IMG/VR virus record: IMGVR_UViG_3300028833_000068
Span: 1 to 64,000 of that record
DNA: 64,000 bases
Origin: a virus
Taxonomy: Duplodnaviria > Caudoviricetes
Strand: one strand, 5' to 3'
The notes beneath the pieces were generated by a model. That model saw only the letters and a list, made by a program, of their open reading frames with translations. It was not told the DNA's origin and did no database searches. Position numbers and translations under genes: made by a program. How positions within the stretch are numbered: position 1 is the stretch's first letter; every line of letters begins with the position of its first letter. This document shows, one piece after another, positions 1,269-23,815 of this stretch.

Positions 1269-1283
1269 ATTATTTTTTTTTTG

Positions 1284-1366
1284 AGACGAGGGTGAGATTT
1301 GAACTCACGTGCTTTTCAGCCAAAGGTTTTGCAGACCTAGGTAATTGACCACTCTACCACCTCGTC
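1284..1366 (-). tRNA. tRNA-Cys(GCA) with long variable arm
   Basis: GACGAGG/CCTCGTC, U73, loop CT-GCA-AA, variable hairpin GCT-GAAA-AGC. Confidence 0.9.
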
Positions 1367-2711: not shown

Positions 2712-2850
2712 GGAAGCGTAGGTTTATTATGACTATTTTCCTCTACATGGAGAACTGTTACTATTCTTCGCAGTAAAACGCATGTGGTACTTAGCCCTTT
2801 GCCTAGTTTCAGAGTAACATAAATTATTAATCCAACTGCTGTACGCTTCC
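2712..2850 (-). ncRNA. ACAGCA-stem element 1 (structured, non-tRNA cargo)
   Basis: GGAAGCGT-ACAGCAG...ACGCTTCC terminal stem. Confidence 0.7.
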
Positions 2851-2895
2851 GCTAAGAGTTCTATTTGAATTATGAAAAACACACTCAAATTAAAA

Positions 2896-3045
2896 AGGAA
2901 CGACCAATTTTATGTCTTGGCTCGACATTCGCTCCTAAGAGCATAAGCAAGTGCCTCGCAAATATGATTTAACGCTTCTCTTGCTTTCATTTACTGAATC
3001 TAATACAAATGTTTTAAAATAAAGTAAATGTTGCTGTACGTTCCT
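2896..3045 (-). ncRNA. ACAGCA-stem element 2
   Basis: AGGAACG-T-ACAGCAA...CGTTCCT terminal stem; internal CATTTACT/AGTAAATG stem. Confidence 0.7.
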
Positions 3046-3175
3046 ACTGATGCAGCTAGGCGCAACTGGGCTTCCTAGATACACCTTGTGATACCGCTTT
3101 AAACCTCGTGAGCCATTGTTAATGCGCACACGCTCGACTTCCACGAGTATTTACGTCTTTGGTTTATTGCGGTTG

Positions 3176-3249
3176 TGATGAGGGAGGGACTCGAACCCTC
3201 AACCTACAGCTTAGAAGGCTGTTGCTCTGTCCAATTGAGCTACCCCACC
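3176..3249 (-). tRNA. tRNA-Arg(TCT)
   Basis: Canonical cloverleaf, ACAGC CT-TCT-AA GCTGT. Confidence 0.95.
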
Positions 3250-3250
3250 A

Positions 3251-3406
3251 TTATTTCAACGTTTTATCTTTCTTCTCGTCATAGTCATCCCATAGGAATG
3301 GTTCTTTTTCATCAACAATTGGTGCGTGTTTGATTTCATATAGGAATATAGAAATTCCTAATCCCATCATAATGCCAAGTACAATTGCAATAATTTTAAG
3401 AATCAT
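3251..3406 (-). CDS. small single-pass membrane protein (51 aa)
   Basis: Hand-translated MILKIIAIVLGIMMGLGISIFLYEIKHAP...; below the ORF-track cutoff. Confidence 0.6.
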   Translation of the reverse strand: MILKIIAIVLGIMMGLGISIFLYEIKHAPIVDEKEPFLWDDYDEKKDKTLK

Positions 3407-3409
3407 AAC

Positions 3410-3562
3410 TTATTGTTTTTTAAATTCCTTTTCAATTTCTCCATCAAATACCTTTCTATTGTATTCATGAGACTTTTTTTCTTTGGAATTAATCTTACCA
3501 ATCAGTACAATAATGACACCTAGTAAGAAACATATTATCATAAACAATATTAACCTTCCCAT
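3410..3562 (-). CDS. small single-pass membrane protein (50 aa)
   Basis: Hand-translated MGRLILFMIICFLLGVIIVLIGKINSK...; directly downstream of a promoter motif. Confidence 0.55.
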   Translation of the reverse strand: MGRLILFMIICFLLGVIIVLIGKINSKEKKSHEYNRKVFDGEIEKEFKKQ

Positions 3563-3630
3563 AATGCAAATATACCAAAAAATTTTTTAATAACCAAATT
3601 TATTAAGACTTTTTAAGAAAATAATTTGTG

Positions 3631-3718
3631 TGCCCTAGGTAGGACTCAAACCTACACGCTACTATTATTTCGCACTAGATTCTAATTCTAGGATGTCTAT
3701 CAATTCCACCACTAGGGC
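3631..3718 (-). tRNA. tRNA-Leu(TAG)
   Basis: GCCCTAG/CTAGGGC, A73, CTAGA AT-TAG-AA TCTAG, long variable region. Confidence 0.9.
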
Positions 3719-3724
3719 ATTTTC

Positions 3725-3875
3725 GGAAACATTTAATATTCTAATTGCCGTGTTTAGCCACTCCACCACCACATGTTTAATGATTAAGTTGTCATGTGGG
3801 TAGGATTCGAACCTACGAAACCGTTACGGTTAGCAATTCCCTTTTGAACATTTTTATCAATTGCTGTACGTTTCC
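3725..3875 (-). ncRNA. ACAGCA-stem element 3: circularly permuted type-II tRNA-like (YrlA-like)
   Basis: GGAAACGT-ACAGCAA...ATGTTTCC; order is V arm, T arm (GTAGG TTCGAAT CCTAC), CCACATG-linker-CATGTGG, D arm. Confidence 0.85.
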
Positions 3876-3878
3876 TTA

Positions 3879-3960
3879 TGGTAGTGAAGGGGGGACTTGA
3901 ACCCCCATACACCAATTACGGCTTTAACGACTGTATATAAGACAGGACCGATACATCACT
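3879..3960 (-). tRNA. non-canonical tRNA-Ile(TAT)-like, D arm displaced, CCA encoded
   Basis: AGTGATG/CTTCACT-A-CCA, CTGT CT-TAT-AT ACAG, GGGGG TTCAAGT CCCCC; no normal D hairpin. Confidence 0.75.
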
Positions 3961-4168
3961 AGTTTAAAATATTGTTATTCCAATATGGATAATTCTTCTT
4001 TTCAGATTCTGGTGTATCAATAAGTTCATACCTTGCTCCGCAATAAGGACAATGTGCGTTTGTAACCATTGCATCATCGTCTTCTGAAAGTTCTTCCCCA
4101 TTAATTTCGCTTAACATGAAATTTGATTCAAGAATCAAATCATGTTTACATCGCATACATTTTTCCAT
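3959..4168 (-). CDS. small zinc-ribbon protein
   Basis: CxxC...CPYCG. Confidence 0.75.
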   Translation of the reverse strand: MEKCMRCKHDLILESNFMLSEINGEELSEDDDAMVTNAHCPYCGARYELIDTPESEKKNYPYWNNNILN

Positions 4169-4189
4169 ATTGTTAAGTTTTAATTTTAA

Positions 4190-4211
4190 GGGGAACTACG
4201 AAGAGTTCCCC
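4190..4211 (-). terminator. hairpin / putative terminator
   Basis: GGGGAACT-N6-AGTTCCCC after the membrane-protein gene. Confidence 0.55.
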
Positions 4212-4220
4212 ATTTTATTT

Positions 4221-4550
4221 TTATTCGGTTTTCTTTGGTAGGAATATTGGCAAGTTATCGATGAAATTCTTAATGAAAGGAATATCATAGATACCATTAC
4301 TTGCAAGTCCCACTACTGCACAAAGGCAAATCAATGCTAGCCATACTGGTTCTCCAATACATGTAATCAAGCCAAGGAAATAACCTCCTACGGTTAGTGC
4401 AGAACCTGTAATCCATGCGACAAGCTGTGGCCAAAATCCTTCTGTAATGTTAAATTTTCCGTTAATTGCTCCTGCAATCGTAACAGTCAATGAAGCAAGA
4501 ATTGGTGCAAAATACCAAAATGCCTCAGTAAATAATGCTGTTGTAATCAT
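4221..4550 (-). CDS. small multi-pass membrane protein, holin-like
   Basis: About 3 hydrophobic segments, GLASNGIYD motif, basic C-terminus. Confidence 0.6.
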   Translation of the reverse strand: MITTALFTEAFWYFAPILASLTVTIAGAINGKFNITEGFWPQLVAWITGSALTVGGYFLGLITCIGEPVWLALICLCAVVGLASNGIYDIPFIKNFIDNLPIFLPKKTE

Positions 4551-4591
4551 AAATTAGGTTTTTAGTTTTAGTTATTTTAAAAAGTATTTTG

Positions 4592-4663
4592 AGACGATGA
4601 CCAGAATCGAACTGGCGTCCTTTGCATGGCAAGCAAACGCACTAGCCACTGTGCTACACCGTC
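4592..4663 (-). tRNA. tRNA-Gly(GCC)
   Basis: GACGGTG/CATCGTC, U73, TTTGC TT-GCC-AT GCAAA. Confidence 0.9.
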
Positions 4664-4724
4664 AATTAATATCTCTTCCTATTATCCTTTAATGTGTGTC
4701 GAAACACTAATTATTTTCTAAAAG

Positions 4725-4797
4725 AGCGTCATAACAGATTCGAACTGTCTCCTAAACCTTGGAGGGGTCTCATGCTACCATTGAACACCAATGACGC
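4725..4797 (-). tRNA. tRNA-Gly(TCC)
   Basis: GCGTCAT/ATGACGC, U73, AGACC CC-TCC-AA GGTTT; C33. Confidence 0.9.
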
Positions 4798-5006
4798 AAG
4801 TAACTAACTTCGTGATAAATGCCTTAAATAGCGTTTATCTGGTTTGGTATTAGTCTTGAGCTGTTTACCTATTCGCAGCAACCGTTTGTCTAGTCATCTA
4901 GAAGACAAAGGAGAATGTAGACGATTTTGATGACTGACAAACTTGCGGTTTTTTCGCATTAACACCGCCAAAGCTTAAGTCTTATTCTCCTAAATGTTGT
5001 TAATGT

Positions 5007-6023
5007 TTACTGTGCCATTGTAACCTTTGCAGCACGACCTTGTACCTTGTCTACGCCCTTACCTACTGCACTAGCAACTCTAACACCACGATTAACGCTA
5101 AGATATTCAGCAACGGTCTTTGCACGGTCTTCAGAAAGCTTCTGATTAAACTCAGCAGTACCATCCTCAGATGCAGTACCTACAACATCAACGATTGCGT
5201 CATTACCAATGCTATTAAGAATAGTCTTTGCCTCATTACTGAGTTCTGAACTAGCGGTTGCAAATGTAACAATCCATTCTGTGTTATTTACGAATACAGT
5301 AGCGGTATTAGGCTGCGTAATGTGTCTCTCAACAATAACCTCAGTTGGCTTCTTTGCAAGTTCCTCATTCAAACGATTAATCTCGTTCATCATTGCACCA
5401 ACATCATAAGTCTTGAAATGACGTGTACCATTAGAGGTCTTGAAGTGATACTTATAAGTTACCATCAAGCTAAGATTTGCATTGTTGTGGTTAAACTGTA
5501 AGGCACTGCCGTTCTTAAGTCCCCAATAGATTGCTGGAGTCAATACAACTGAATGCTGCTTAGTCTTACCAAAATTAACTGCAAAATCGAAACCAGTCTT
5601 TGCAACAAGGTCATTTCCGCTATGGTCAAAACCATGACGTGCTCCAATACCTAGTACAGCAGATGTCTCAAATGCACGAGGTGTACCCTTATAGCCCAAG
5701 AAGATGTTAGGAAGGTTAAAAGCACCATTCAAGCCAAGACTAATAGACCTAAAGGCAGTCTTTACATCACCAAAATGGTTGTCACCAAGGCTTGTCAAAA
5801 CCTCAAGCTGTGCATCTAACCAAGGAGTGATACCCTTTGTACCAACAAGACCGAAAGTTGTGTTTACTGGGAACACGCTATTCATGTCAAGAGGTGAAGT
5901 TACACCTACGGTTGCTCCAAGGCTAATGTTGTCGAGAACCTTGCTGTTCTCAGTTGCAATCTGTGCATTCGCACCCATCACTACGGCACTAAACAGTGCC
6001 AACATTAAAATCAATTTCTTCAT
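5007..6023 (-). CDS. OmpA-family outer membrane protein
   Basis: Signal peptide, alternating beta-strand region, C-terminal OmpA-like motif GTASEDG...NQKLSEDRAKTVAEYL. Confidence 0.85.
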   Translation of the reverse strand: MKKLILMLALFSAVVMGANAQIATENSKVLDNISLGATVGVTSPLDMNSVFPVNTTFGLVGTKGITPWLDAQLEVLTSLGDNHFGDVKTAFRSISLGLNGAFNLPNIFLGYKGTPRAFETSAVLGIGARHGFDHSGNDLVAKTGFDFAVNFGKTKQHSVVLTPAIYWGLKNGSALQFNHNNANLSLMVTYKYHFKTSNGTRHFKTYDVGAMMNEINRLNEELAKKPTEVIVERHITQPNTATVFVNNTEWIVTFATASSELSNEAKTILNSIGNDAIVDVVGTASEDGTAEFNQKLSEDRAKTVAEYLSVNRGVRVASAVGKGVDKVQGRAAKVTMAQ

Positions 6024-6063
6024 AACAATTTTTTTTTAATTTAATTTTGTTTTTAATTTGTTA

Positions 6064-6372
6064 TTAGAAGGGGAGGTCATCAAGCTCCTTTGCTATTCTG
6101 AGTCTCCACCTATATGTATAATATTTTACGTTAAATTTATAACTAATCTTAAATGACGGTATGTTAACATTAATACCCTTACGTTCAAATGTCTTGACTA
6201 TTAAATCAAAAGCATCTGAACAGTATGGATATGTTGTTTCCACATTAAGCTCTAGTGGTTCTTCATCATCCATCACATTCTTGTTTATACAATCTTGAAT
6301 GTTCCTTATGAAAAATAAACAATACCTAGGAAAATCAATATCCTTTTTTGTTATTTTCTTATATTCAGCCAT
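6064..6372 (-). CDS. hypothetical protein
   Basis: ORF track; DDLPF C-terminus. Confidence 0.7.
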   Translation of the reverse strand: MAEYKKITKKDIDFPRYCLFFIRNIQDCINKNVMDDEEPLELNVETTYPYCSDAFDLIVKTFERKGINVNIPSFKISYKFNVKYYTYRWRLRIAKELDDLPF

Positions 6373-6388
6373 AAATTCTATAAAAAAC

Positions 6389-6491
6389 GGATGCTCTTTT
6401 TGTTTGCTAAACCACTAAGCGACTTTGCCAAACGGCAAGGGTTGGAATCGAACCAACGTAGAAACAGAAGTTTCCATTGCTGTAAGCATCC
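6389..6491 (-). ncRNA. ACAGCA-stem element 4: YrlA-like T-acceptor-D module
   Basis: GGATGCTT-ACAGCAA...GAGCATCC; GTTGG TTCGATT CCAAC, CCTTGCC-GTTT-GGCAAAG, GCTTAGTGGTTTAGC. Confidence 0.85.
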
Positions 6492-6496
6492 TTGTG

Positions 6497-6644
6497 TGGA
6501 CTGTATTGGATTCGAACCAATGTTGCCGATTAGCCGCTTCACATTACATATGAAACATCATTATGTTAATCACCATAATGTGCAAAGGGGTCTCTCCTTT
6601 GTTCCTCCAAGTGCTTCGCTGCATTCCAACTTACTGAACAGTCC
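6497..6644 (-). ncRNA. 148-nt tRNA-like RNA (acceptor and T arm, large internal insert)
   Basis: GGACTGT/ACAGTCC-A, ATTGG TTCGAAT CCAAT; no canonical anticodon arm. Confidence 0.7.
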
Positions 6645-6751
6645 ATTTAATTTATTTTATAAAGAGTTATAGAAACTTATAAAAGCATCTATTTTCTCTT
6701 TCATCATTTCCTTCCCTTTTTCATTGTTTATTTGATTCCATGATAAATTGT

Positions 6752-7123
6752 TTAATACTGTTGTTTGCTTGGAATAACACCCCTTACACCACCACGAGGA
6801 TTATCACAGTCTCCATCGTATCTTGGGATAATGTGGATATGACAGTGTTTAACTGTTTGCCCAGCACTATCCCCACAGTTAGTACCGATGTTATAACCAG
6901 TAGGATGAAACTTATCATCCAGTATCTTTTTCACATCATTCAGTCTAAAACTCAATGATTCCCTCAGCCTATCTGGTAGGTCAAAGAAGGTTTCGTGATG
7001 CTCCTTCGGAATGAGTAGCGTATGTCCAGGGGTTACAGGATAACCATCGTAAACGGCAACCCACTCTGTAGTCTCAAACAGAATTCTACTCTTATCAATA
7101 TTACAAAAAATACAATTATCCAT
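6752..7123 (-). CDS. HIT family nucleotide hydrolase
   Basis: CIFC N-terminus, PGHTLLIPK, GQTVKHCHIHIIPR histidine triad. Confidence 0.95.
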   Translation of the reverse strand: MDNCIFCNIDKSRILFETTEWVAVYDGYPVTPGHTLLIPKEHHETFFDLPDRLRESLSFRLNDVKKILDDKFHPTGYNIGTNCGDSAGQTVKHCHIHIIPRYDGDCDNPRGGVRGVIPSKQQY

Positions 7124-7221
7124 ACTCTAATTTACCGTTTGGGTATTTGTTGAAAAACTCTGTTATAATGTCTCTTATCTCGTCACACATACCTTCTCTT
7201 CCTTCGTATGTGATTTTCTTG

Positions 7222-7297
7222 TGGCACAGACCCGACTCGAACGGGCACAATCCACTTCCCAAAAGTGGGCGGGTACCAATTACCGTTATACTGCGCC
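7222..7297 (-). tRNA. tRNA-Pro(TGG)
   Basis: GGCGCAG/CTGTGCC, CCACT TT-TGG-GA AGTGG, GCCCG TTCGAGT CGGGT. Confidence 0.85.
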
Positions 7298-7305
7298 AAT
7301 TATTC

Positions 7306-7424
7306 GGAAACATCTATCCACTTAGCTATCACGCCAATCTTGGTAGCGTGAGTTGGACTTGAACCAACGACCTTAAAATCCCGAATTTTATACTATATCA
7401 TTTTTTAACTTGCTGTGTGTTTCC
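7306..7424 (-). ncRNA. ACAGCA-stem element 5: circularly permuted tRNA-Pro(CGG)-like
   Basis: GGAAACAC-ACAGCAA...ATGTTTCC; TAAAA TT-CGG-GA TTTTA, AGGTC, T arm, TCACGCT-A-CCA, linker, GGCGTGA, D arm. Confidence 0.85.
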
Positions 7425-7478
7425 TTGTACTTTTGCAAAGATATATAAAATATTTTAAATTTCCAAATTTTTGACGTT

Positions 7479-8423
7479 TTATTTTTCGTTTATGTCTATT
7501 TTTGCAATAAGTGGATAATGGTCTGATGATGTTATATTAGTATCAAAAGAACATTCTTTCAATGACAATTGATATTTTGACTTATCATTATTAACATAGA
7601 ACAACTTATCACAATCTGAATGATTTGTTGGGATTGCTTCTTGAATATTTAATCCATTTATATTATTAATGGCATTAATCAAATTATCTTGAATGTTTGT
7701 TTTATCCCATTCATACTTATCGTAAGTATTTGTGTCACCAAATATGATAATTGGGTTATATGATTTGGCTTTATCTATATATTCCACCAATTGTTTTAAC
7801 TGTGATTCTCTTGCTTCCAAATCTCCAGATATATTTGGACATTTTTCTGCATCATAAAAATCAGCATCCATGTGTAACATATACACATCCAATGGAATTT
7901 CGTTATCTATAACGGTAGTATAATATCTAAATCCTTTATGAGTTAATGCATCATTAGCATGCGTAAAGTACCCATAGCACTTTTTCCATCGTTTAATGTC
8001 TTCTGTTTTTTGAATGACATCAATTCTATTTTTCTTAGCAATGATATTAATACCATCACATTTAAATCTAGGCAATGGAAAATAAGTTAGCCATTCTGTA
8101 TTTGAAAATAACTTTGAAAGGTCAAATCCTCCTGTATATTTGCCACAAGAATAATTATCTTTCAATGATGACATTAATTCATCATGATAATTAAAGTCTT
8201 CTTGAACTCCTATAATATCTGCCTCAGAGGATGATAGATATTTGCTTATGTTTTCAATATCTTCTTTCTTATTTCCATTGTCATTAATTGAAATAATTGT
8301 TGTTCCTTTAAATAACTTATATATCCAAGCAATTGGTTTCAATATCCAAGGAAGGTCATTTAAATCCAATTCACTTGGCAAACCATCAATATTATAGGTT
8401 ATTAGCTTAATTGTTTTATCCAT
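7479..8423 (-). CDS. endonuclease/exonuclease/phosphatase (EEP) family protein
   Basis: ITYNIDG, DIIGVQED, GDTN, SDHYP motifs. Confidence 0.9.
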   Translation of the reverse strand: MDKTIKLITYNIDGLPSELDLNDLPWILKPIAWIYKLFKGTTIISINDNGNKKEDIENISKYLSSSEADIIGVQEDFNYHDELMSSLKDNYSCGKYTGGFDLSKLFSNTEWLTYFPLPRFKCDGINIIAKKNRIDVIQKTEDIKRWKKCYGYFTHANDALTHKGFRYYTTVIDNEIPLDVYMLHMDADFYDAEKCPNISGDLEARESQLKQLVEYIDKAKSYNPIIIFGDTNTYDKYEWDKTNIQDNLINAINNINGLNIQEAIPTNHSDCDKLFYVNNDKSKYQLSLKECSFDTNITSSDHYPLIAKIDINEK

Positions 8424-8463
8424 TTAATCTATTGTTCCTTCTTCTATTAGTTTTACCTTGTAT

Positions 8464-8501
8464 TTGACATACTCTCACGCCTAAAGGCATTGGGCTTTCT
8501 T
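8464..8501. mobile_element. possible orphan IS200/IS605-family end hairpin
   Basis: CTCTCACGCCTAAAGGCATTGGGCTTTCT resembles IS605/IS1341-type subterminal palindromes; no transposase nearby. Confidence 0.4.
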
Positions 8502-8551
8502 GGGAAATTTTTCGTAACTTTTTCATAACAAATTACAGTATTAATCATTTG

Positions 8552-8635
8552 GGTGATATGTTGGATTCGAACCAACGTGAGCTTTCGCTACCAGGACCAC
8601 AATCTGGCGTCATCGGCCTCTAGACGAATATCACC
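8552..8635 (-). tRNA. tRNA-His(GTG) with G-1 and long variable arm
   Basis: G-GTGATAT/ATATCAC-C73, CCAGA TT-GTG-GT CCTGG, AGC-GAAA-GCT variable hairpin. Confidence 0.9.
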
Positions 8636-8832
8636 ATATTAAAAACGAACAGTAGTATATGCCATTACGAGCAGATACCATTACTAGTTACTATCAATTG
8701 CCTCAGCATATCGTCATCATTTTTACAGTACTACTATTATATGACTATTGTTTGCCTACTTCCTATCAAGTCTGTTCTTCTGTGTAGACTTCCCTACATT
8801 GCACGAAGCGGTGACTACAATCCCCCAATGCG

Positions 8833-8917
8833 TGGACTGTATGGGACTCGAACCCATCGTTCTGTATGGTCTTCGTGCGCCTAACCGACCAGCGTTTCCC
8901 TACCACATTGACAGCCC
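8833..8917 (-). ncRNA. tRNA-like RNA with G3:U70 (Ala-type) acceptor, no canonical D or anticodon arm
   Basis: GGGCTGT/ACAGTCC-A, ATGGG TTCGAGT CCCAT, TGGTC/GACCA stem with a 15-nt loop. Confidence 0.7.
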
Positions 8918-8929
8918 ATGTTAAAAAAC

Positions 8930-9045
8930 GGAATCATTAAAACTAAGGTGGTGCAGGATTCGAACCTACGTTCTCTTGGTAAAATCCAAGGCTTTAGTCC
9001 ACTAAGCTAACCGTCTGAAGTTTATATCAATTGCTGTTAGATTCC
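8930..9045 (-). ncRNA. ACAGCA-stem element 6: whole tRNA body (UUU-like loop) inside the scaffold
   Basis: GGAATCTA-ACAGCAA...ATGATTCC; GCTT AGTGGACTA AAGC, CTTGG ATTTTA CCAAG, GTAGG TTCGAAT CCTGC. Confidence 0.8.
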
Positions 9046-10542: not shown

Positions 10543-10745
10543 AACTATAATTGTATGTTATTAAAATAAAGGAGAGTAGTATCTAATTAAGTAAATCTCT
10601 AGAGTCGTTAAAGACATAATACAATCTATCATTTACCTTCGACCAATCGGCATCAAGATATACATCTTAATAAGACTTGCTCTCCAACAAGGCTTACCTA
10701 GTTTGAGTGTTGCTTGGCAACTCTCAGGGACTAATAAGCTCCATG

Positions 10746-10817
10746 TTGAGGCTGAATGAATCGAACATTCATAATGAGGACCAGAATCTCATGTAATAAC
10801 CATTATACGAAGCCTCA
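10746..10817 (-). tRNA. tRNA-Gln(CTG)
   Basis: TGAGGCT/AGCCTCA, TGAGA TT-CTG-GT CCTCA. Confidence 0.9.
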
Positions 10818-10824
10818 AGTTTAA

Positions 10825-10886
10825 GGGAACATTTTTAACTTATCCAAATTTGCAGTTCGATGTTAAATACATTGCTGTATGTTCCC
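10825..10886 (-). ncRNA. ACAGCA-stem element 7: minimal scaffold presenting a Cys(GCA) anticodon arm
   Basis: GGGAACAT-ACAGCAA...ATGTTCCC; TTAAC/GTTAA; TCGAA CT-GCA-AA TTTGG. Confidence 0.8.
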
Positions 10887-10992
10887 ACTATTTGATAGCA
10901 GGGTTGCTAGATTTCACTCAAATGACTTTACACATTAAACGTATCTGCATGCACTGTCCGTTCTTGAGACTGTCCTAGTACTTTCTGCTTTG

Positions 10993-11083
10993 TATTGGGT
11001 AGGGGATTCGAACCCCTGAAGAGTCTCGTAAAACTCTTACAAGATTGAAAGTCTTGCTACTTAAACCACTCGTACAACCCAAC
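10993..11083 (-). tRNA. tRNA with Glu(TTC) anticodon on a type-II (long variable arm) body
   Basis: GTTGGGT/ACCCAAT-A, CAAGA CT-TTC-AA TCTTG, AAGAGTTT-TACG-AGACTCTT variable stem. Confidence 0.85.
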
Positions 11084-15245: not shown

Positions 15246-15677
15246 TTAGAATGGTAGGTCATCTGCATCATTAGTAGCAGTTGTTGCTGCTGCCATCTCA
15301 GCTTCATCTGTCTTAGGTTGGAACTTTCCTGTGTCTGTGGTTGCATCATTTGATGCAGTATCACCAGACTTTCCAAGATTTACAAATTCAATTCTGTCAG
15401 CGAGAATATCTCTTGAAACCATTGTTTCGCCATTCTTGCTCTGATAGGTACTAACAGTCTCTGAACCCATCACACTAACAGCACTACCCTTTTTCAAGTA
15501 CTCTTGCATCTTAATGCCTCTGTCGTTAACCCAAGTAACATTAAGCCATGCAGTGCTCTTCTCGCCATTCTTAAACTCGTCTGTGGCAACTCTCATTGAC
15601 ACAAACTGTTTTCCATTCTTACCAGTTTTCAATTCGGCATCTGCTCCTAATCTGCCGATAAAGTTCACATTTACCAT
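15246..15677 (-). CDS. ssb: single-stranded DNA-binding protein
   Basis: IGRLGADAE, YLKKGSAVSV, acidic DDLPF tail. Confidence 0.95.
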   Translation of the reverse strand: MVNVNFIGRLGADAELKTGKNGKQFVSMRVATDEFKNGEKSTAWLNVTWVNDRGIKMQEYLKKGSAVSVMGSETVSTYQSKNGETMVSRDILADRIEFVNLGKSGDTASNDATTDTGKFQPKTDEAEMAAATTATNDADDLPF

Positions 15678-15702
15678 GATTAATTAAGGTTTAGTTAAAA
15701 AA

Positions 15703-16011
15703 TTAGATTATATATAAAATTAGTTTTTCTCCTTTAACACTCCATCCTTGGTTTTTGATTACTTCATATTCCTCTTGTGGTAATTTTGAATTCACTAGAC
15801 TATCTATATCAATCTCATAATAATAGTCAAATGTCTTTTCATCCATTTTCAAGGCAACATCAGTAAACAACGCAATATTGATAAATGCCGATGCATTTAA
15901 CTTGTGTTTCTCCTCAGATGAATTGTCTTTTAAAAGAGTTTTTAAATCATTCTTTGTCATATCACTTATGTTTCGTGATGCAAAGATATGAAAAAAAAAG
16001 TTAAATTCCAA
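15703..16011 (-). CDS. hypothetical protein (likely start at MTKND)
   Basis: ORF track; annotated N-terminus overlaps a promoter. Confidence 0.6.
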   Translation of the reverse strand: MEFNFFFHIFASRNISDMTKNDLKTLLKDNSSEEKHKLNASAFINIALFTDVALKMDEKTFDYYYEIDIDSLVNSKLPQEEYEVIKNQGWSVKGEKLILYII

Positions 16012-16069
16012 ATATTTTAAGAAAAAAAATCTGAAACTATCAAATAATCTCAGATTTTTTAAACATATC

Positions 16070-16318
16070 TTAAAACTTGATTGTACTCACGTATCCATTA
16101 TTTTTGAACTTGTTATACACATCTTGAGTAAGGTCATGTGCCTCTTGCTTCATTTGACTTATTACATGGTGCAAGGCATTAATGCACTCATCAGTTTGGC
16201 GAATATTGGCAATGGCAAAGTCAAAACTACCATCAGTCTTCTTTACCTCATTCTTTGACATATCAATACGCATATTGAAATTGTCAATACAACTCTGAAC
16301 AAATTCATTATCTATCAT
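16070..16318 (-). CDS. hypothetical protein
   Basis: ORF track. Confidence 0.65.
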   Translation of the reverse strand: MIDNEFVQSCIDNFNMRIDMSKNEVKKTDGSFDFAIANIRQTDECINALHHVISQMKQEAHDLTQDVYNKFKNNGYVSTIKF

Positions 16319-16323
16319 ACCTC

Positions 16324-17241
16324 TTACCCAATTATATTTCCACTCTTATCACAAATTAATCCACGATGTATATCAATCACAATTGGACGATGCTTACGTT
16401 TAAACTCAGAACGTACAGAACGCATAATCACAGCTTCTACGGTTTCATAACCATGTTTTTCACATAGTGCCTTAAATACTCCATAATCAAAATAATTATG
16501 AAGCACATGCTCCTTAATTCTAGAATCAAGCCCAACCCAAGCTTGTAGGATTTCGTCAACGTCATCATAGGTCTTTCCAGGGGCTATCTGAGCCAAATCG
16601 CCTCCAGCCTTAACACCATTACCATCAGTTGGAATCAATGCAATAGACTGTTCAAGAGCCTTTGAATCCTTAAAATGATTTTCCTTTAGGTAACGAGCAA
16701 GGTCATAAACCTCATGCTTCCATAAACCGCCAATTGGATTTAATTCTCCTTCATCACCTCCAGCAATGGTCCAAAATCCCAAAAAGCATTCTGTCAAATT
16801 ATCGGTATCAATCACAATACCATTAGTGATACTAGCTAAATTGTGTAAGAAATTACCTCTTAGCCTAGCCTTAATATTACCTTGTGAAACATTGGTACTA
16901 ATTAAACCAAATGAATTAAAAACATTTTCTACATTAACAAATAACTCTTGTAGATTTATTTCTTTAAAATCATTACAAAACTCCATCCCAACAAGTTTGG
17001 CTGTTGATATTTCAACTTCCTCATTTGTTGAACAAGGAAGACTAGCACCAATTAGTGGAATACTCGTCTTATCATATACCATCTTACAAATAGCTGCGCA
17101 TAAAGTTGAATCAATTCCTCCTGAAATTCCAAGAACTTGTGTTTTAATGTGATTTTTAACCAAATATTCAGCAACGCCATTAACAATGTTATCAAGAACC
17201 TTCTTATAATCAAGAGGGCTTGTTCTATAAGTCTCAACCAT
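16324..17241 (-). CDS. nadE: NH3-dependent NAD+ synthetase
   Basis: LGISGGIDST, GNIKARLR, TDNLTE..GFWT..GD, PIGGLWKHEV, SEFKR. Confidence 0.93.
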   Translation of the reverse strand: MVETYRTSPLDYKKVLDNIVNGVAEYLVKNHIKTQVLGISGGIDSTLCAAICKMVYDKTSIPLIGASLPCSTNEEVEISTAKLVGMEFCNDFKEINLQELFVNVENVFNSFGLISTNVSQGNIKARLRGNFLHNLASITNGIVIDTDNLTECFLGFWTIAGGDEGELNPIGGLWKHEVYDLARYLKENHFKDSKALEQSIALIPTDGNGVKAGGDLAQIAPGKTYDDVDEILQAWVGLDSRIKEHVLHNYFDYGVFKALCEKHGYETVEAVIMRSVRSEFKRKHRPIVIDIHRGLICDKSGNIIG

Positions 17242-18373
17242 AACAATTTAAAATTTCGTTTAACATTTCTTTTTTATCTTCAAAAACAAAATATGGATAA
17301 TCTATACCCAAATCACTATAATATAACAATTTTATACCATTTTTTTTACATAATACATTCTTAATTTTATCATTTTTAATAACATATTTAAAGCCATATT
17401 TTCCCTTTTCAAAATGAGAAACTTTTTTAAAATGTTGTATTCCTTGACATTCAATTGCTACTTTATATTTTGGCAAATAAAAATCTAAACTAAATTTTCC
17501 TAACCATTCTAAATCTTTTTTAGACGCAACATGAATATACTCTATATTATTATCATCAAATAATTTTTTTATCGCTAATTCCAAATGAGACATTCTACAA
17601 TGAGGACACCCAGCGCCACACAAATGAGAATTCGCTGTTTGCTCAAAATCACCATGAATAGGACATGTTATTGTAATTAAATTAGCTTGTATTGTGTATT
17701 TTGATTTTGAATAATCATACTTATCACCATGTACTTCTTTAGCTTTTTCTATAAAATCTTTTGTACTTAATTTTCCAACATTTGCACAATATGCGCATTT
17801 TGCGCCATTTATGTGCCTTGATGGGTGTTGCCAGAATTCGCCATGCTTTGGGCAGATAATACAAACTCTTCCCTTTTCGTCACGATGTTCTAAATCAACT
17901 TTAGAATAATCATACTTATCACCATGCGTTTCTTTGGCTCTATTTAAAAATTCATGCATTGTTAATGGCACTCCTCCATTACATTTTGGACAACCCCTAT
18001 GATTGGTTTTATGAATATGATTGGCTGGTGTTTGCCAAAATTCGCCATGCGTAGGACAGATTATGCATACTTTAGTATTAGCATTCACATATTCTACCTT
18101 AGAATAGTCATATTTATCGCCATGTATTTCTTTAGCCTTACTTATAAATTCTTCGGAAGTCAATAGAACTCCTCCATTACATTTTGGACAACCCCTATGA
18201 TTGGTTTTATGAATATGATTGGCTGGTGTTTGCCAAAATTCGCCATGCGTAGGACAGATTATGCATACTTTAGTTCTGTTATTGGTGTATTCTACTTTTG
18301 AATAATCATACTTATCACCATGTACTTCTTTAGCTTTTTCTATAAAATCTTTTGTTGTTATTTTTTTAGGCAT
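17234..18373 (-). CDS. homing endonuclease: DUF723-like zinc repeats plus C-terminal PD-(D/E)XK/Vsr-like domain
   Basis: 4 x (HGDKYDYSK...ICPxHGxFxQ...H...C.xC) repeats; LDFYLPKYKVAIECQGIQH. Confidence 0.85.
   Translation of the reverse strand: MPKKITTKDFIEKAKEVHGDKYDYSKVEYTNNRTKVCIICPTHGEFWQTPANHIHKTNHRGCPKCNGGVLLTSEEFISKAKEIHGDKYDYSKVEYVNANTKVCIICPTHGEFWQTPANHIHKTNHRGCPKCNGGVPLTMHEFLNRAKETHGDKYDYSKVDLEHRDEKGRVCIICPKHGEFWQHPSRHINGAKCAYCANVGKLSTKDFIEKAKEVHGDKYDYSKSKYTIQANLITITCPIHGDFEQTANSHLCGAGCPHCRMSHLELAIKKLFDDNNIEYIHVASKKDLEWLGKFSLDFYLPKYKVAIECQGIQHFKKVSHFEKGKYGFKYVIKNDKIKNVLCKKNGIKLLYYSDLGIDYPYFVFEDKKEMLNEILNCYG
17973..18274. repeat. about 104-bp identical intragenic duplication, period 198 bp
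   Basis: 17973-18076 matches 18171-18274. Confidence 0.85.
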
Positions 18374-22135: not shown

Positions 22136-23815
22136 TTACAACTTAATGTAAGACAGAATTTCTTGGTTAAGTGCCTTGGCTACAAGTTCCTCTGCGGTAA
22201 GATTACGTACCTTTCCAGTTACCTCATCAATAACCTTCGACTCTTCTCCACATAGGGTTGTTATAATGCTTCCGTCAAATCCCGAAAGGAACGTACATCC
22301 ACTCTCGAAGGCAGTACCCTCAAAGTGGGTTACACCGTGTCTTGCAACACAATCCCACCAAATGAATTTCATATTGTCCACAAACTCACTTGGGAATACA
22401 GTCTTCAACGCCCTCTTTGAGTACTCGAAGTTTGTTTCAGTTTGGCGATAGTTGCCACCATACCAACTACGATTAGACGGGTTAAACTCCATATCGGATA
22501 CAACCAGTATGGTCTTTGGATACTGCTCCAATGGAATTTCTGGATGTGCCTTTCTAATCTTGATGATTTCATCAACTGCTGATTGGAAATTAGTTCCACC
22601 GCAGCCTACGCTAGGAAGGTTCATAATTCTATCACAGAATGACTCGCCAACCATATCGTGAGGTGTTGACACATTGTCGAACATAATAACCTTATTATGG
22701 AAAGGACCAGTATTAAGGTCAGCGAAGAACAATGCAAGCGATGATGCAATATCAGAACAATAGATGTCCTTCAATCCTCTAACAGCTTGGTTCATTGAAC
22801 CGCTAGTATCAAGACAGCACCATACATTCTCTGTAATCTTACCACCATCACGAGCCTTATCAACAAGACCCTTGAACTGTGCATCAAGAGTGTGCTTCAA
22901 CTCTATGGGAATATTTGCATTGCCACCACGATAGTAACCATACCTACTACCACGAGCCTCACGTAGGCGCTTTGCAAGTTCAAAGACATAGCCAGTGAAC
23001 TTAGCAACTGGCTGCTGCAATATCCACTCTGTATAGTTCTCTCTCAAATCGTGGTTTGAAAGGAACTTGCTTGACACAAGAAGGTTAAGAGCACGTCCTG
23101 GAATGTGATTCCAATTCAAGTCCTTATAGTTCCTTGAGCAGATAAGCTTCTGGAAATCGTGAGCCTTACCGCTAGCCTTCATCTTATTGTACTCCTTGTA
23201 GGAGATACCCATTTGACTAGCGAATGCCTTTGCGAGGTCATTGGTAATCTTTGTCCAATCAGTATTGCACTTGCTCTGAGACTTAATACGAGGCATGTAC
23301 TTCTTAATCAAGTCAACATGGGTGTCGCAAAGTAGACCTTGTGCGATTACCTCAAAGAGAGCCTTTTGGTTAATACAATTGGTATTCTCCTTGATATCGT
23401 AGAACATAATTGTCCACAAGTCCTTCCAAGAGCCAACAAGTGGCAATGCCCAAATGTTGTTATAGAACGCCTCTGGATGCTCCAATGCAACCCAAAGCAA
23501 TCTCTTGAATGACTCGTCACGAGCACCTTGTCCATTCTGAACCTTATCAGTCTCGTTGTCAGCATTCACCTTGACCTTACGAGTAACCATACGAAGGTAG
23601 AATGGGAAACGAAGAGCTGCCTCTGCATTCTCATTCCAAATATTTGCTTGTTCAGCAAACACCTCTCCAATGGCACGACCACGAAAGTTTCCAGCCTTAC
23701 CGAATTGGTCTACGATTGCAGACCCACTAGAAATTAGTGTTGTTGCCCCGTTTTCTGTCAGTGTTGTTGACTTAAAGTTTGCTGCGTTGATAAATGCGTT
23801 TGCCTTTGTGTTCAT
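22136..23815 (-). CDS. DUF2828-type (TROVE/Ro60-like) protein with C-terminal vWA domain
   Basis: TENGA N-terminal motif, GQGARD, GSWKDL, KYMPR, MIDAS DTSGSM, GGTNFQ, VVSDMEF. Confidence 0.8.
   Translation of the reverse strand: MNTKANAFINAANFKSTTLTENGATTLISSGSAIVDQFGKAGNFRGRAIGEVFAEQANIWNENAEAALRFPFYLRMVTRKVKVNADNETDKVQNGQGARDESFKRLLWVALEHPEAFYNNIWALPLVGSWKDLWTIMFYDIKENTNCINQKALFEVIAQGLLCDTHVDLIKKYMPRIKSQSKCNTDWTKITNDLAKAFASQMGISYKEYNKMKASGKAHDFQKLICSRNYKDLNWNHIPGRALNLLVSSKFLSNHDLRENYTEWILQQPVAKFTGYVFELAKRLREARGSRYGYYRGGNANIPIELKHTLDAQFKGLVDKARDGGKITENVWCCLDTSGSMNQAVRGLKDIYCSDIASSLALFFADLNTGPFHNKVIMFDNVSTPHDMVGESFCDRIMNLPSVGCGGTNFQSAVDEIIKIRKAHPEIPLEQYPKTILVVSDMEFNPSNRSWYGGNYRQTETNFEYSKRALKTVFPSEFVDNMKFIWWDCVARHGVTHFEGTAFESGCTFLSGFDGSIITTLCGEESKVIDEVTGKVRNLTAEELVAKALNQEILSYIKL

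What the first reader, a model, noticed from the sequence alone, without database searches (positions are those of the whole stretch)
10825..10886. 62-nt mini-RNA displaying only a Cys(GCA) anticodon stem-loop
The smallest family member: handle, a TTAAC/GTTAA stem, then TCGAA CT-GCA-AA TTTGG. Its 7-nt loop is identical to that of the tRNA-Cys at 1284-1366. An isolated anticodon arm on a protein-binding handle would suit a decoy for anticodon nucleases or modification enzymes (inference).
Basis: partly seen in the sequence, partly recalled or inferred. Interest (0 to 1): 0.75.

Follow-up and report, generated by a model that had tools for sequence, protein, structure and literature searches.

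The report
Phage Y-like RNA displaying anticodon arm
This 62-base stretch is a real small RNA gene of a giant rumen-type phage: a conserved "handle" that probably docks the phage's own Ro60-like ring protein holds up a look-alike of the cysteine tRNA's anticodon arm, a stripped-down form of tRNA mimicry that may bait host enzymes that read or cut tRNA anticodon loops.

Summary
Window 10825-10886 (minus strand) has an 8-bp terminal helix, unpaired ACAGCAA, a 6-bp second helix, and a 5-bp/7-nt hairpin whose loop CUGCAAA equals that of the phage's tRNA-Cys.

**Family.** It belongs to a large family of "handle" RNAs. A covariance model built only from 18 mini-elements of other phages hits exactly these coordinates (51.3 bits, E about 1e-9).

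Of 83 mini-elements found by handle alone, 48 carry an anticodon-arm-like hairpin, against 11.9 in shuffles. Stems covary while loops copy real tRNA loops (Lys, Cys, Tyr, His, Asp, Ile, Ser, Pro).

**Likely partner.** The same window encodes a 559-aa DUF2828+vWA protein (22136-23815) that folds like Ro60. A homologue is present in 13 of 13 complete handle-bearing genomes. In four cultured phages, handle RNAs abut or closely follow its gene.

**Reading.** I read the element as a minimal Y-RNA-like partner RNA. Protein binding and the decoy role are inferred, not shown.

**Caveats.**
- Nearest-neighbour energies favour an 8-nt-loop register in this copy.
- The exact Cys variant was seen only here.
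- RtcB, syntenic in 8 of 10 complete relatives, is missing at that spot here.

The scan noted this family before on other DNA.

The parts
10879..10886 (-). Handle, 5' strand (GGGAACAU), RNA positions 1-8
   Evidence: Pairs with 10825-10832 by eight Watson-Crick pairs. Across 63 unique family members, positions 3, 5, 7 and 8 covary with their 3' partners while G1, G2 and C6 stay fixed.
10872..10878 (-). Unpaired ACAGCAA motif, the family signature
   Evidence: It is nearly invariant in the 63 members. The pattern with its stem is found 12 times in the window against 1.36 expected. It occupies the place of the GNCGAA/CGAA Ro-binding motif of canonical Y RNAs.
10862..10867 (-). Second helix, 5' strand (UUUAAC)
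   Evidence: Pairs with 10834-10839. Pair probabilities are 0.59-0.94. Equivalent helices are present in homologous mini-elements.
10856..10860 (-). Anticodon-arm mimic, 5' stem strand (UCGAA)
   Evidence: Five pairs with UUUGG, two of them G-U. The register is supported by the covariance-model alignment and by the Cys-type cargo in L091, but not by the MFE.
10849..10855 (-). 7-nt loop CUGCAAA (C32 U33 GCA A37 A38 equivalent)
   Evidence: Identical to the anticodon loop of tRNA-Cys at 1283-1366. It is the only CTGCAAA of 41 in the record with 5 of 5 flanking pairs.
10844..10848 (-). Anticodon-arm mimic, 3' stem strand (UUUGG)
   Evidence: Part of the AAAUUUGGAU block shared with type-B relatives, where it forms loop plus stem of a Pro-like hairpin.
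10834..10839 (-). Second helix, 3' strand (GUUAAA)
10825..10832 (-). Handle, 3' strand (AUGUUCCC), preceded by an A-rich joiner
   Evidence: tRNA-Gln(ctg) starts 7 nt downstream, at 10817.
2712..9045 (-). Six further handle RNAs of the same family: 2712-2850, 2896-3045, 3725-3875, 6389-6491, 7306-7424, 8930-9045
   Evidence: All share the 5' handle plus ACAGCAR and a complementary 3' end. Several enclose permuted or whole tRNA-like bodies. 6381-6480 gives a weak YrlA match of 31.7 bits.
22136..23815 (-). Gene for a 559-aa Ro60-like protein (DUF2828 + DUF7788/vWA), the probable protein partner
   Evidence: Pfam gives DUF2828 at 33.5 bits, DUF7788 at 54.9 bits and a weak VWA_2. The AlphaFold2 model has pLDDT 73.7. 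The top 12 Foldseek PDB matches are all Ro60/TROVE proteins, E 7e-8 to 1e-5, full length. tblastn reaches mycobacteriophage 'Ro-like RNA binding protein' genes.
1283..1366 (-). Canonical tRNA-Cys(GCA) whose anticodon loop the element copies
   Evidence: ARAGORN and Rfam call it. The loop is CUGCAAA and the stem is unrelated to the mimic's stem.

Best explanation
The element is a small non-coding RNA gene, a minimal member of a phage family of Y-RNA-like "ACAGCAA-handle" RNAs.

Its 5' and 3' ends pair into a short helix. That helix and the adjacent single-stranded ACAGCAA form a constant handle. The handle most likely docks the phage's own Ro60-like ring protein (gene at 22136-23815), as the terminal stem of a Y RNA docks Ro60.

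The rest of the RNA is a rod of two stacked helices. Its tip copies the anticodon loop of tRNA-Cys(GCA).

I propose that the particle uses this tip as bait or tether for a factor that reads anticodon loops. The most likely target is a host tRNA-targeting nuclease, which would be titrated or brought to the Ro60-like ring. That would protect the tRNAs the phage needs.

- **Shown:** the structure, family membership, covariation, loop mimicry, the presence and fold of the protein, and its co-occurrence with the handle.
For: **Membership.** A model built from 18 foreign mini-elements hits 10825-10886 at 51.3 bits.

**Structure in homologues.** RNAalifold finds the anticodon-like hairpin unaided, with compensatory changes at 4 of 5 pairs. 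The covariation score is 0.344 against 0.124 in shuffles, 0 of 500 reaching it.

**Loop mimicry.**
- 48 of 83 handle-defined minis carry a Y-U-NNN-R-N hairpin, against 11.9 +/- 3.1 in shuffles. The strict CU-NNN-AA form is 25 against 0.8.
- CTNNNAA inside mini cargos has 5 of 5 flanking pairs in 15 of 38 cases, against 372 of 7760 in the background.
- Loops equal those of the cognate phage tRNAs (Cys, Lys, Tyr identical) while the stems are unrelated.
- CUUUUAA sits on 9 different stems.
- Two orthologous 63-nt minis differ only by GUA versus GCU in the triplet.

**Partner protein.**
- It has the Ro60 fold.
- It is present in G001-G005 and in 8 of 8 other handle-bearing records that are at least 90% complete.
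- Handle RNAs abut the Ro-like gene in Leptolyngbya phage Lbo-JY46, Enterococcus phage PEF1 and Mycobacterium phage MiniLon. In E. coli phage REP11 they lie about 0.35-1 kb downstream, inside the tRNA cluster that starts right after the gene. The reversed-motif control gives 0 in all four.

**Published parallels.**
- Y RNAs dock Ro60 through a terminal stem with a 5'-side motif and carry tRNA-like modules (PMC4201824).
- A phage Ro60 binds phage Y-like RNAs and host PNPase (PMC12135203).
- The Ro60-like gp130 of Felixounavirus Bas63 counters a defence system (PMC11482910).

**RNA-repair context.** RtcB lies between the Ro60-like gene and the tRNA/handle island in 5 of 5 closest complete relatives, and is present in 8 of 10 overall.
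Against: - There is no binding, expression or processing data.
- The Ro60-like gene is about 11 kb from this element, not adjacent.
- The handle lacks the canonical GNCGAA/CGAA motif, and Rfam YrlA does not match this element.
- In this copy the 7-nt-loop register is thermodynamically disfavoured, and the stem has two G-U pairs.
- The exact Cys variant was seen only in this record. Positional orthologues in the closest relatives carry a Pro-like loop, so purifying selection on this copy is not demonstrated.
- The known phenotype of a homologous protein is against ppl, a putative DNA-directed system, not a tRNA nuclease.
- 35 of 83 minis have no anticodon-like hairpin, and those of E. coli phage REP11 do not look like anticodon arms.
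- I ran no negative control of phages that lack the protein.
Confidence: 0.5

Rival explanations
1. The RNA and the likely Ro60-like partner are the same, but the anticodon-like tip engages something other than a defence nuclease. Candidates are a tRNA-modification enzyme (MiaA-type for A36-A37-A38, TrmD-type for G36-G37, TGT for GUN), an aminoacyl-tRNA synthetase, the ribosome, or an exoribonuclease such as PNPase as in the RYPER complex. The RNA would then act as tether or gate rather than decoy.
For: - Bacterial and phage Y RNAs tether Ro60 to PNPase.
- The mimics keep the cognate position-37/38 letters: A37 after NNA and NNU triplets, G37 after UGG, C38 for Asp. Those are the features that modification enzymes read; that link rests on established knowledge, not on a test here.
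- The phage encodes its own TyrRS at 20509-21810.
Against: - A PNPase tether would not need exact, anticodon-specific loops.
- Ser(GCU)-type mimics exist although SerRS does not read the anticodon (established knowledge), so synthetases cannot be the general reader.
- No test distinguishes these readers here.
Confidence: 0.2
2. This particular copy is a decaying or recently rearranged relic of a type-B mini-element with no function of its own. The Cys-like hairpin would be a by-product of an internal deletion or recombination.
For: - The closest relatives have a 74-77-nt element with a clean Pro-like hairpin at the same spot.
- G000 keeps the AAAUUUGGAU block but lacks about 11 nt.
- The stem is weak and the MFE prefers another register.
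- The exact variant was not found elsewhere.
Against: - The handle (8 of 8 Watson-Crick) and second helix (6 of 6) are intact.
- The new hairpin has the family's canonical geometry and an exact tRNA-Cys loop.
- Its cargo closely matches a Cys-type cargo on a different handle in another phage (L091), with a U-A to C-G change in the stem.
- It scores higher against the mini-element model than its positional orthologues: 51.3 against 24-38 bits.
Confidence: 0.12
3. The handle RNAs are precursors. An endonuclease removes the handle and RtcB joins the ends, as for the circularly permuted tRNA genes of the red alga Cyanidioschyzon. This would yield working tRNAs from the permuted members, and the minis would be spare parts or by-products.
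For: - Several members hold tRNA halves in permuted order, some with an internal CCA.
- RtcB lies next to the island in most relatives.
Against: - A 62-nt RNA with only an anticodon arm cannot give a tRNA.
- The handle enters the tRNA body at different places and sometimes around an unpermuted body with a 6-nt loop and conserved acceptor mismatches.
- RtcB is absent from two complete relatives and from the syntenic spot in this record.
- No self-cleaving ribozyme family was matched by Rfam.
Confidence: 0.05
4. The conserved helix plus ACAGCAA is a cis-acting processing or punctuation signal of the polycistronic tRNA transcript, for example an RNase site or a terminator-like element. It would not be a trans-acting RNA.
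For: - Handles often start 3-6 nt after a tRNA 3' end, and many are followed by G/U plus a U-run.
Against: - No terminator-like site is found around this element. Its 3' flank is not U-rich, and tRNA-Gln follows 7 nt later.
- A punctuation role does not explain covarying internal hairpins with exact anticodon loops.
- It does not explain tandem arrays directly beside Ro-like genes outside tRNA clusters.
Confidence: 0.05

Closest known systems
Bacterial and phage Y RNAs bound by Ro60/Rsr (YrlA, YrlB, Yrn1; Rfam RF02553; Chen et al. 2014, PMC4201824)
   Same: - The 5' and 3' ends pair into a terminal stem with a conserved motif on the 5' side.
- The variable remainder mimics tRNA.
- They are encoded near a Ro60-type gene, several per genome, and sometimes near RtcB.
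   Different: - The motif is ACAGCAA instead of GNCGAAN0-1G.
- Rfam YrlA gives no match to this element, and only sub-threshold matches to the tRNA-like part of larger members (31.7 and 37.7 bits against a cut-off of 69).
- The protein is a divergent DUF2828-type Ro60 that the TROVE Pfam model does not detect.
- The cargo here is a bare anticodon arm, the part that YrlA lacks.
- Copies lie scattered in a tRNA island 11-20 kb from the protein gene.
Thermus phage phiLo Ro60 with Yrl1/Yrl2 (PMC12135203; PDB 9KOP, 9L5Y)
   Same: A phage-encoded Ro60 binds phage-encoded Y-like RNAs. The proposed role is hijacking host RNA enzymes to escape defence. These structures are among the top fold matches of the protein in this window.
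   Different: The phiLo RNAs carry the CGAA motif and no anticodon mimic. No array lies in a tRNA island.
Ro60-like gp130 of Felixounavirus Bas63 (PhageMaP preprint, PMC11482910)
   Same: It is a Ro60-fold phage protein directly upstream of the tRNA stretch, with a measured anti-defence phenotype. The authors guessed that some "tRNAs" are Y RNAs. In the related E. coli phage REP11 I find four unannotated handle RNAs in that stretch.
   Different: The countered system (ppl) is thought to act on DNA. The Y RNAs were not mapped. The REP11 cargos are not anticodon-like. I did not check the REP11/gp130 relationship by sequence.
Phage answers to anticodon nucleases: own tRNAs with altered loops, and tRNA repair (T4 Pnk/Rnl1 against PrrC; RtcB in jumbo phages, PMC7824862)
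   Same: The same arena of tRNA islands and RNA ligase. The anticodons displayed (Lys UUU, Tyr, His, Asp, Cys, Ile, Pro, Ser) are those of tRNAs known as nuclease targets in various bacteria (established knowledge).
   Different: Those strategies replace or mend tRNAs. An RNA that only imitates the target loop on a protein-binding handle has not been described, as far as my searches reach.
Class I RNAs of dictyostelid amoebae (PMC7919456)
   Same: They are about 60 nt, with a short stem joining the 5' and 3' ends, a conserved 11-nt single-stranded motif next to the 5' stem strand, a variable remainder and many gene copies.
   Different: They are eukaryotic, with an RRM protein as the known partner.

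Membership tests
ACAGCAA-handle RNAs of phages (Y-like RNAs travelling with DUF2828-type Ro60-like proteins; no published name found) | Terminal helix formed by the 5' and 3' ends, G-G start, C at position 6 | tested here: met
   GGGAACAU pairs with AUGUUCCC, 8 of 8 Watson-Crick. It fits the logo of 63 members.
ACAGCAA-handle RNAs of phages (Y-like RNAs travelling with DUF2828-type Ro60-like proteins; no published name found) | Single-stranded ACAGCAR directly 3' of the 5' strand, with an A-rich joiner before the 3' strand | tested here: met
   ACAGCAA is at 10872-10878 and an AAAA-type joiner precedes the 3' strand.
ACAGCAA-handle RNAs of phages (Y-like RNAs travelling with DUF2828-type Ro60-like proteins; no published name found) | Significant score against a covariance model built from other members | tested here: met
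   R1 gives 51.3 bits, E about 1e-9, full length, with all 13 pairs standard.
ACAGCAA-handle RNAs of phages (Y-like RNAs travelling with DUF2828-type Ro60-like proteins; no published name found) | Same genome encodes the Ro60-like protein, on the same strand, near a tRNA cluster | tested here: met
   The gene is at 22136-23815 on the minus strand. The element lies inside the tRNA island.
ACAGCAA-handle RNAs of phages (Y-like RNAs travelling with DUF2828-type Ro60-like proteins; no published name found) | Physical binding of the handle to the Ro60-like protein | not testable with these tools
   Only co-occurrence was measured: 13 of 13 complete genomes, with adjacency or close proximity in 4 cultured phages.
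Canonical Y RNA / YrlA (Rfam RF02553) | Rfam gathering score (69 bits) | tested here: not met
   There is no YrlA match to 10790-10920 even at E up to 10. The larger member at 6381-6480 reaches 31.7 bits.
Canonical Y RNA / YrlA (Rfam RF02553) | GNCGAAN0-1G (CGAA) Ro-binding motif near the 5' end | tested here: not met
   ACAGCAA stands in its place.
Canonical Y RNA / YrlA (Rfam RF02553) | tRNA-like module with T arm, D arm and closed acceptor | tested here: not met
   This member has only an anticodon-arm look-alike. Other members in the window have the module.
Canonical Y RNA / YrlA (Rfam RF02553) | Encoded within about 2 kb of a TROVE-domain Ro60 gene | tested here: not met
   Pfam TROVE finds nothing in the record or in five complete relatives. 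The Ro60-fold gene is a DUF2828 type about 11 kb away.
tRNA (RF00005) | Cloverleaf with acceptor, D, anticodon and T arms | tested here: not met
   Neither ARAGORN nor Rfam calls a tRNA at 10825-10886. Only the anticodon arm has a counterpart.
Circularly permuted tRNA genes (Cyanidioschyzon type) | 3' half upstream of 5' half, with leader and trailer forming a processing motif, yielding a full tRNA | tested here: not met
   This element holds no tRNA halves: no acceptor, T or D parts are present. Permuted order is seen in other family members, but processing is untested.

The most novel reading that the evidence does not exclude
Large phages carry a small library of exchangeable anticodon-loop baits (Lys, Cys, Tyr, His, Asp, Ile, Ser, Pro). 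Each is mounted on a common handle that loads it onto a Ro60-like ring. The particles would capture or neutralise host nucleases that cut specific tRNA anticodon loops. Specificity could be re-aimed by two-letter changes or by swapping cargos between handles. This 62-nt RNA would be the Cys-specific bait of this phage.
Probability: 0.25. Interest if true: 0.9.

Novelty: new variant of a known kind. Interest (0 to 1): 0.72.

Why it matters
Ro60 and Y RNAs are a long-studied particle whose bacterial and viral roles remain unclear. tRNA cleavage is now recognised as a common bacterial defence against phages.

This element, with its many relatives, suggests that a divergent and widespread phage branch of the Ro60 system uses a different RNA docking motif (ACAGCAA). 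It also suggests that this branch presents not only tRNA "top halves" but bare, anticodon-specific loops.

If the loops are baits, this would be an RNA-based counter-defence with readable specificity. The displayed anticodon would predict which host tRNA is under attack.

The question is directly testable. The same RNAs and protein occur in cultivable phages of E. coli, Enterococcus, Mycobacterium and a cyanobacterium, and one homologous protein already has an anti-defence phenotype.

It also matters for annotation. These RNAs are unannotated, and parts of them are miscalled as odd tRNAs or small ORFs.

Tried and rejected
**Searches that found nothing**
- Canonical Ro60: Pfam TROVE finds nothing in this record or in five complete relatives. 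The partner surfaced only through DUF2828 and the fold search, after a lead from earlier notes.
- RNA ligases in this record: RtcB, Rnl2-type and Rnl1-type all found nothing. The Rnl1 control rang nowhere, so that search is uninformative.
- RtcB as the obligate partner: it is syntenic in 5 of 5 closest complete relatives but absent from 2 of 5 further ones. Here the syntenic spot holds NAD synthase and a homing-endonuclease-like gene instead.
- Known RNA families: Rfam at gathering and at loose thresholds gave nothing for this element. No ribozyme, riboswitch or tmRNA was matched.
- A blastn search of phage records with the 1-kb region gave no match.
- A second protein from the tRNA island gave no related loci.
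- Literature searches for permuted tRNAs in phages, anticodon-arm decoys, DUF2828 and the motif letters found no description of this family.

**Readings considered and dropped**
- Self-cleaving ribozyme or circularisation: no support. The termini pair flush, which is a poor geometry for ligation.
- Intrinsic terminator or promoter: none at the element. One weak promoter-like site lies upstream of tRNA-Glu(ctc).
- Hypervariable-triplet idea: among 9 close pairs of minis, only one shows a triplet switch. Loops are otherwise conserved within lineages.

**Not possible**

Full report
**What is there**

The window is the first 64 kb of a 171-kb IMG/VR virus record, judged about half complete. Its first 12 kb hold a tRNA island on the minus strand. 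ARAGORN tRNAs there and Rfam adds a few more.

The finding lies between tRNA-Glu(ttc) (10992-11083) and tRNA-Gln(ctg) (10745-10817). Read on the minus strand, the 62 nt are laid out as follows:
- an eight-pair terminal helix, GGGAACAU with AUGUUCCC;
- unpaired ACAGCAA;
- a six-pair helix, UUUAAC with GUUAAA;
- a hairpin, UCGAA-CUGCAAA-UUUGG.

The loop is letter for letter that of the phage's tRNA-Cys at 1283-1366. No tRNA or Rfam family is called on it. No ORF of 50 aa or more overlaps it.

**Is it more than chance?**

- The fold is modestly better than shuffles (z = -2.47).
- Of 41 CTGCAAA words in the 171-kb record, only this one has five of five flanking pairs.
- The stronger argument is the family. 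The pattern GGAANNNN-ACAGCAA occurs 12 times in the window against 1.36 expected. The six or seven copies in the tRNA island all end in the matching complement.
- Five complete relatives of 295-413 kb carry 10-15 such RNAs each, all in the tRNA island and on its strand.
- Across 63 distinct members, G1, G2, C6 and ACAGCA are almost invariant. Helix positions 3, 5, 7 and 8 covary with their partners.

I collected mini-members from IMG/VR by the handle alone. This gave 83 distinct sequences lying in tRNA-rich contexts.
- 48 carry a hairpin of at least four pairs with a 7-nt Y-U-NNN-R-N loop. Mononucleotide shuffles of the cargos give 11.9 +/- 3.1, with a maximum of 21 in 500.
- The strict form CU-NNN-AA occurs 25 times against 0.8 expected.
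- Anchoring on the loop word instead of the pairing gives the same answer. Five of five flanking pairs occur in 15 of 38 cases inside cargos, against 372 of 7760 elsewhere in the same loci.
- The loops are CUUUUAA (13 times, on nine different stems), UUUGGGU, CUGCAAA/UUGCAAC, CUGUAAA, CUGUGAA, UUGUCAC, CUGAUAA and CUGCUAA. These are the loops of Lys, Pro, Cys, Tyr, His, Asp, Ile and Ser tRNAs.
- Within a genome they equal the loops of the phage's own cognate tRNAs, while the stems are unrelated and A/U-rich.
- On an alignment of 18 minis without the present one, RNAalifold predicts just this hairpin, with compensatory changes at four of five pairs.
- My pair count gives a covariation score of 0.344 against 0.124 in shuffles, 0 of 500 reaching it. 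The slid controls are far lower. These 18 were chosen for having the hairpin, so this count is not independent of the choice. The motif-anchored test is.
- Two orthologous 63-nt minis in two relatives are identical except for GUA against GCU in the triplet. Other close pairs keep their loops. Loops are therefore conserved, with occasional switches.

**Caveats for this copy**

- Nearest-neighbour energies prefer a register shifted by one, with an 8-nt loop: -13.1 against -9.1 kcal/mol.
- At the same spot before tRNA-Gln, all relatives carry a 73-80-nt element on the same GGGAACAY handle. That includes three relatives whose neighbouring protein is 89-95% identical. Their hairpin is Pro-like, UUAAA-UUUGGGU-UUUAA.
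- The present copy keeps the block AAAUUUGGAU but is about 11 nt shorter.
- Its interior resembles a Cys-type cargo found on a different handle in another phage (L091, with a U-A to C-G change in the stem). It scores higher against the mini model than its positional orthologues do.
- I read this as cargo exchange between handles rather than decay. However, the exact variant was not found elsewhere, so selection on it is unproven.

**The likely partner**

Pfam TROVE finds nothing in the record or in five relatives. Earlier notes of this scan on other genomes pointed to a DUF2828-type Ro60-like protein. I tested that lead here.
- The window encodes a 559-aa protein at 22136-23815, on the same strand. 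It matches DUF2828 (33.5 bits), DUF7788 (54.9 bits) and, weakly, vWA.
- An AlphaFold2 model from 44 homologues has pLDDT 73.7.
- Its twelve best PDB matches are all Ro60/TROVE proteins, over the full length: frog and human Ro60, Deinococcus Rsr and Thermus phage phiLo Ro60, with E from 7e-8 to 1e-5.
- tblastn reaches 453 cultured phage records. They include mycobacteriophage genes annotated "Ro-like RNA binding protein" and Felixounavirus "RNA-binding protein" genes.
- The protein is present in all five complete relatives, always upstream of the island. It is also in eight of eight further handle-bearing records that are at least 90% complete. The records without it are fragments.
- In four cultured phages of unrelated hosts, RNAs with a perfect closing helix plus ACAGCAR lie next to or just downstream of the Ro-like gene. 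There are four in tandem after it in Leptolyngbya phage Lbo-JY46, two of them with CUUUUAA loops. Two lie before it in Enterococcus phage PEF1, one with a CUGCAAA loop. Two follow it in Mycobacterium phage MiniLon. Four lie in the tRNA cluster that follows it in E. coli phage REP11. The reversed motif gives none.
- The MiniLon RNA matches Rfam YrlA only in its tRNA-like part (37.7 bits). The handle is therefore a docking module different from the GNCGAA/CGAA motif of described Y RNAs.

**Context**

- RtcB RNA ligase lies between the Ro60-like gene and the island in the five closest complete relatives. It is present in eight of ten overall. This recalls the rsr-yrlBA-rtcBA operon of Salmonella (PMC7790460, listed; the operon layout is from established knowledge).
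- In this record RtcB was not found. The syntenic place holds other genes.
- A preprint reports that the Ro60-like gp130 of Felixounavirus Bas63, directly upstream of its tRNAs, counters the ppl defence system. The authors guess that some of those "tRNAs" are Y RNAs (PMC11482910).
- The phiLo study shows a phage Ro60 binding phage Y-like RNAs and host PNPase (PMC12135203).

**Mechanism**

*Shown:* a structured RNA family with a constant terminal handle and exchangeable cargo; cargos that copy tRNA parts, here only the anticodon arm; a Ro60-fold protein that travels with the handle.

*Inferred:* the handle docks that protein as Y RNA stems dock Ro60, and the anticodon-like tip engages a factor that reads anticodon loops. 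I favour a host tRNA-targeting nuclease, for three reasons:
- the loops are exact, anticodon-specific copies;
- they mostly duplicate tRNAs that the phage also supplies;
- the system sits with tRNA-supply and RNA-repair genes.

Other readers (modification enzymes, synthetases, exonucleases) are not excluded.

I rate membership in the family near certain, the Ro60-like partnership likely (about 0.65), and the decoy role possible (about 0.3).

**Novelty**

Y RNAs with tRNA-like modules next to Ro60 genes, including in 22 phages, were described in 2014. I found no description of the following:
- the ACAGCAA handle;
- its link to the DUF2828 branch of Ro60;
- arrays inside tRNA islands;
- members that display only an anticodon arm.

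Earlier agents of this scan reported the same family on other genomes, including Cys(GCA) arms in a 401-kb rumen phage. This element is therefore one more member, not a first sighting within the scan. I class it as a new variant of a known kind.

Noticed in passing
window 7306-7424 (-), with orthologues in G001-G005: This handle RNA encloses a circularly permuted tRNA-like body: anticodon arm, T arm, acceptor 3' strand, short linker, acceptor 5' strand, then D arm. The handle enters through the D loop. The anticodon differs between orthologues: CGG here, and GAU, AAU or CAU in relatives. Some copies encode CCA before the linker.
   Followed up: partly
window 8930-9045 (-), with orthologues: This handle RNA surrounds an unpermuted tRNA-like body. 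It has a conserved 6-nt loop AUUUUA and conserved A-C/C-A mismatches at acceptor positions 3-70 and 4-69, while other acceptor pairs covary. ARAGORN calls it a tRNA with a 2-letter anticodon.
   Followed up: partly
window 15246-18373 (-), compared with L010 1057-3228: Relatives have RtcB just upstream of the SSB and TelA genes that precede the tRNA island. This record has no RtcB there. It has an NAD synthase and a DUF723/zinc-finger homing-endonuclease-like gene instead.
   Followed up: partly
window 6752-7123 (-) and 7479-8423 (-): A HIT-family hydrolase and an endonuclease/exonuclease/phosphatase-family protein are encoded inside the tRNA/handle island. Both could be RNA-end-processing enzymes.
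   Followed up: no
window 20509-21810 (-): A phage-encoded tyrosyl-tRNA synthetase lies between the Ro60-like gene and the island.
   Followed up: no
islands of G001-G005 (loci L030-L042): Each relative carries a tRNA with anticodon CUA, which ARAGORN labels 'Pyl'. This is an amber suppressor and hints at TAG recoding in this phage group.
   Followed up: no
window 10887-10991 (-): The 105-nt spacer between tRNA-Glu(ttc) and the element holds no called gene, while some relatives (L010, L131) have tRNA-Leu(aag) there. It may be a decayed tRNA.
   Followed up: no
L126 (E. coli phage REP11) 7714-8492: Four unannotated RNAs of the form GACCNNNU-ACAGCAA...NNNGGUC lie among the tRNA genes just after the Ro-like 'RNA-binding protein' gene. 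One encloses a permuted tRNA-like module. Their small cargos are not anticodon-like.
   Followed up: partly
L129 (Serratia phage BF) about 7521-7692: An ACAGCAG word with a possible closing helix lies between an RNA ligase gene and the Ro-like gene, overlapping a small annotated ORF. It is a weaker candidate handle RNA.
   Followed up: no
window 2733-2888 and 2935-3144 (-): These mechanical ORFs of 51 and 69 aa overlap handle RNAs 2712-2850 and 2896-3045. They are probably not genes.
   Followed up: no
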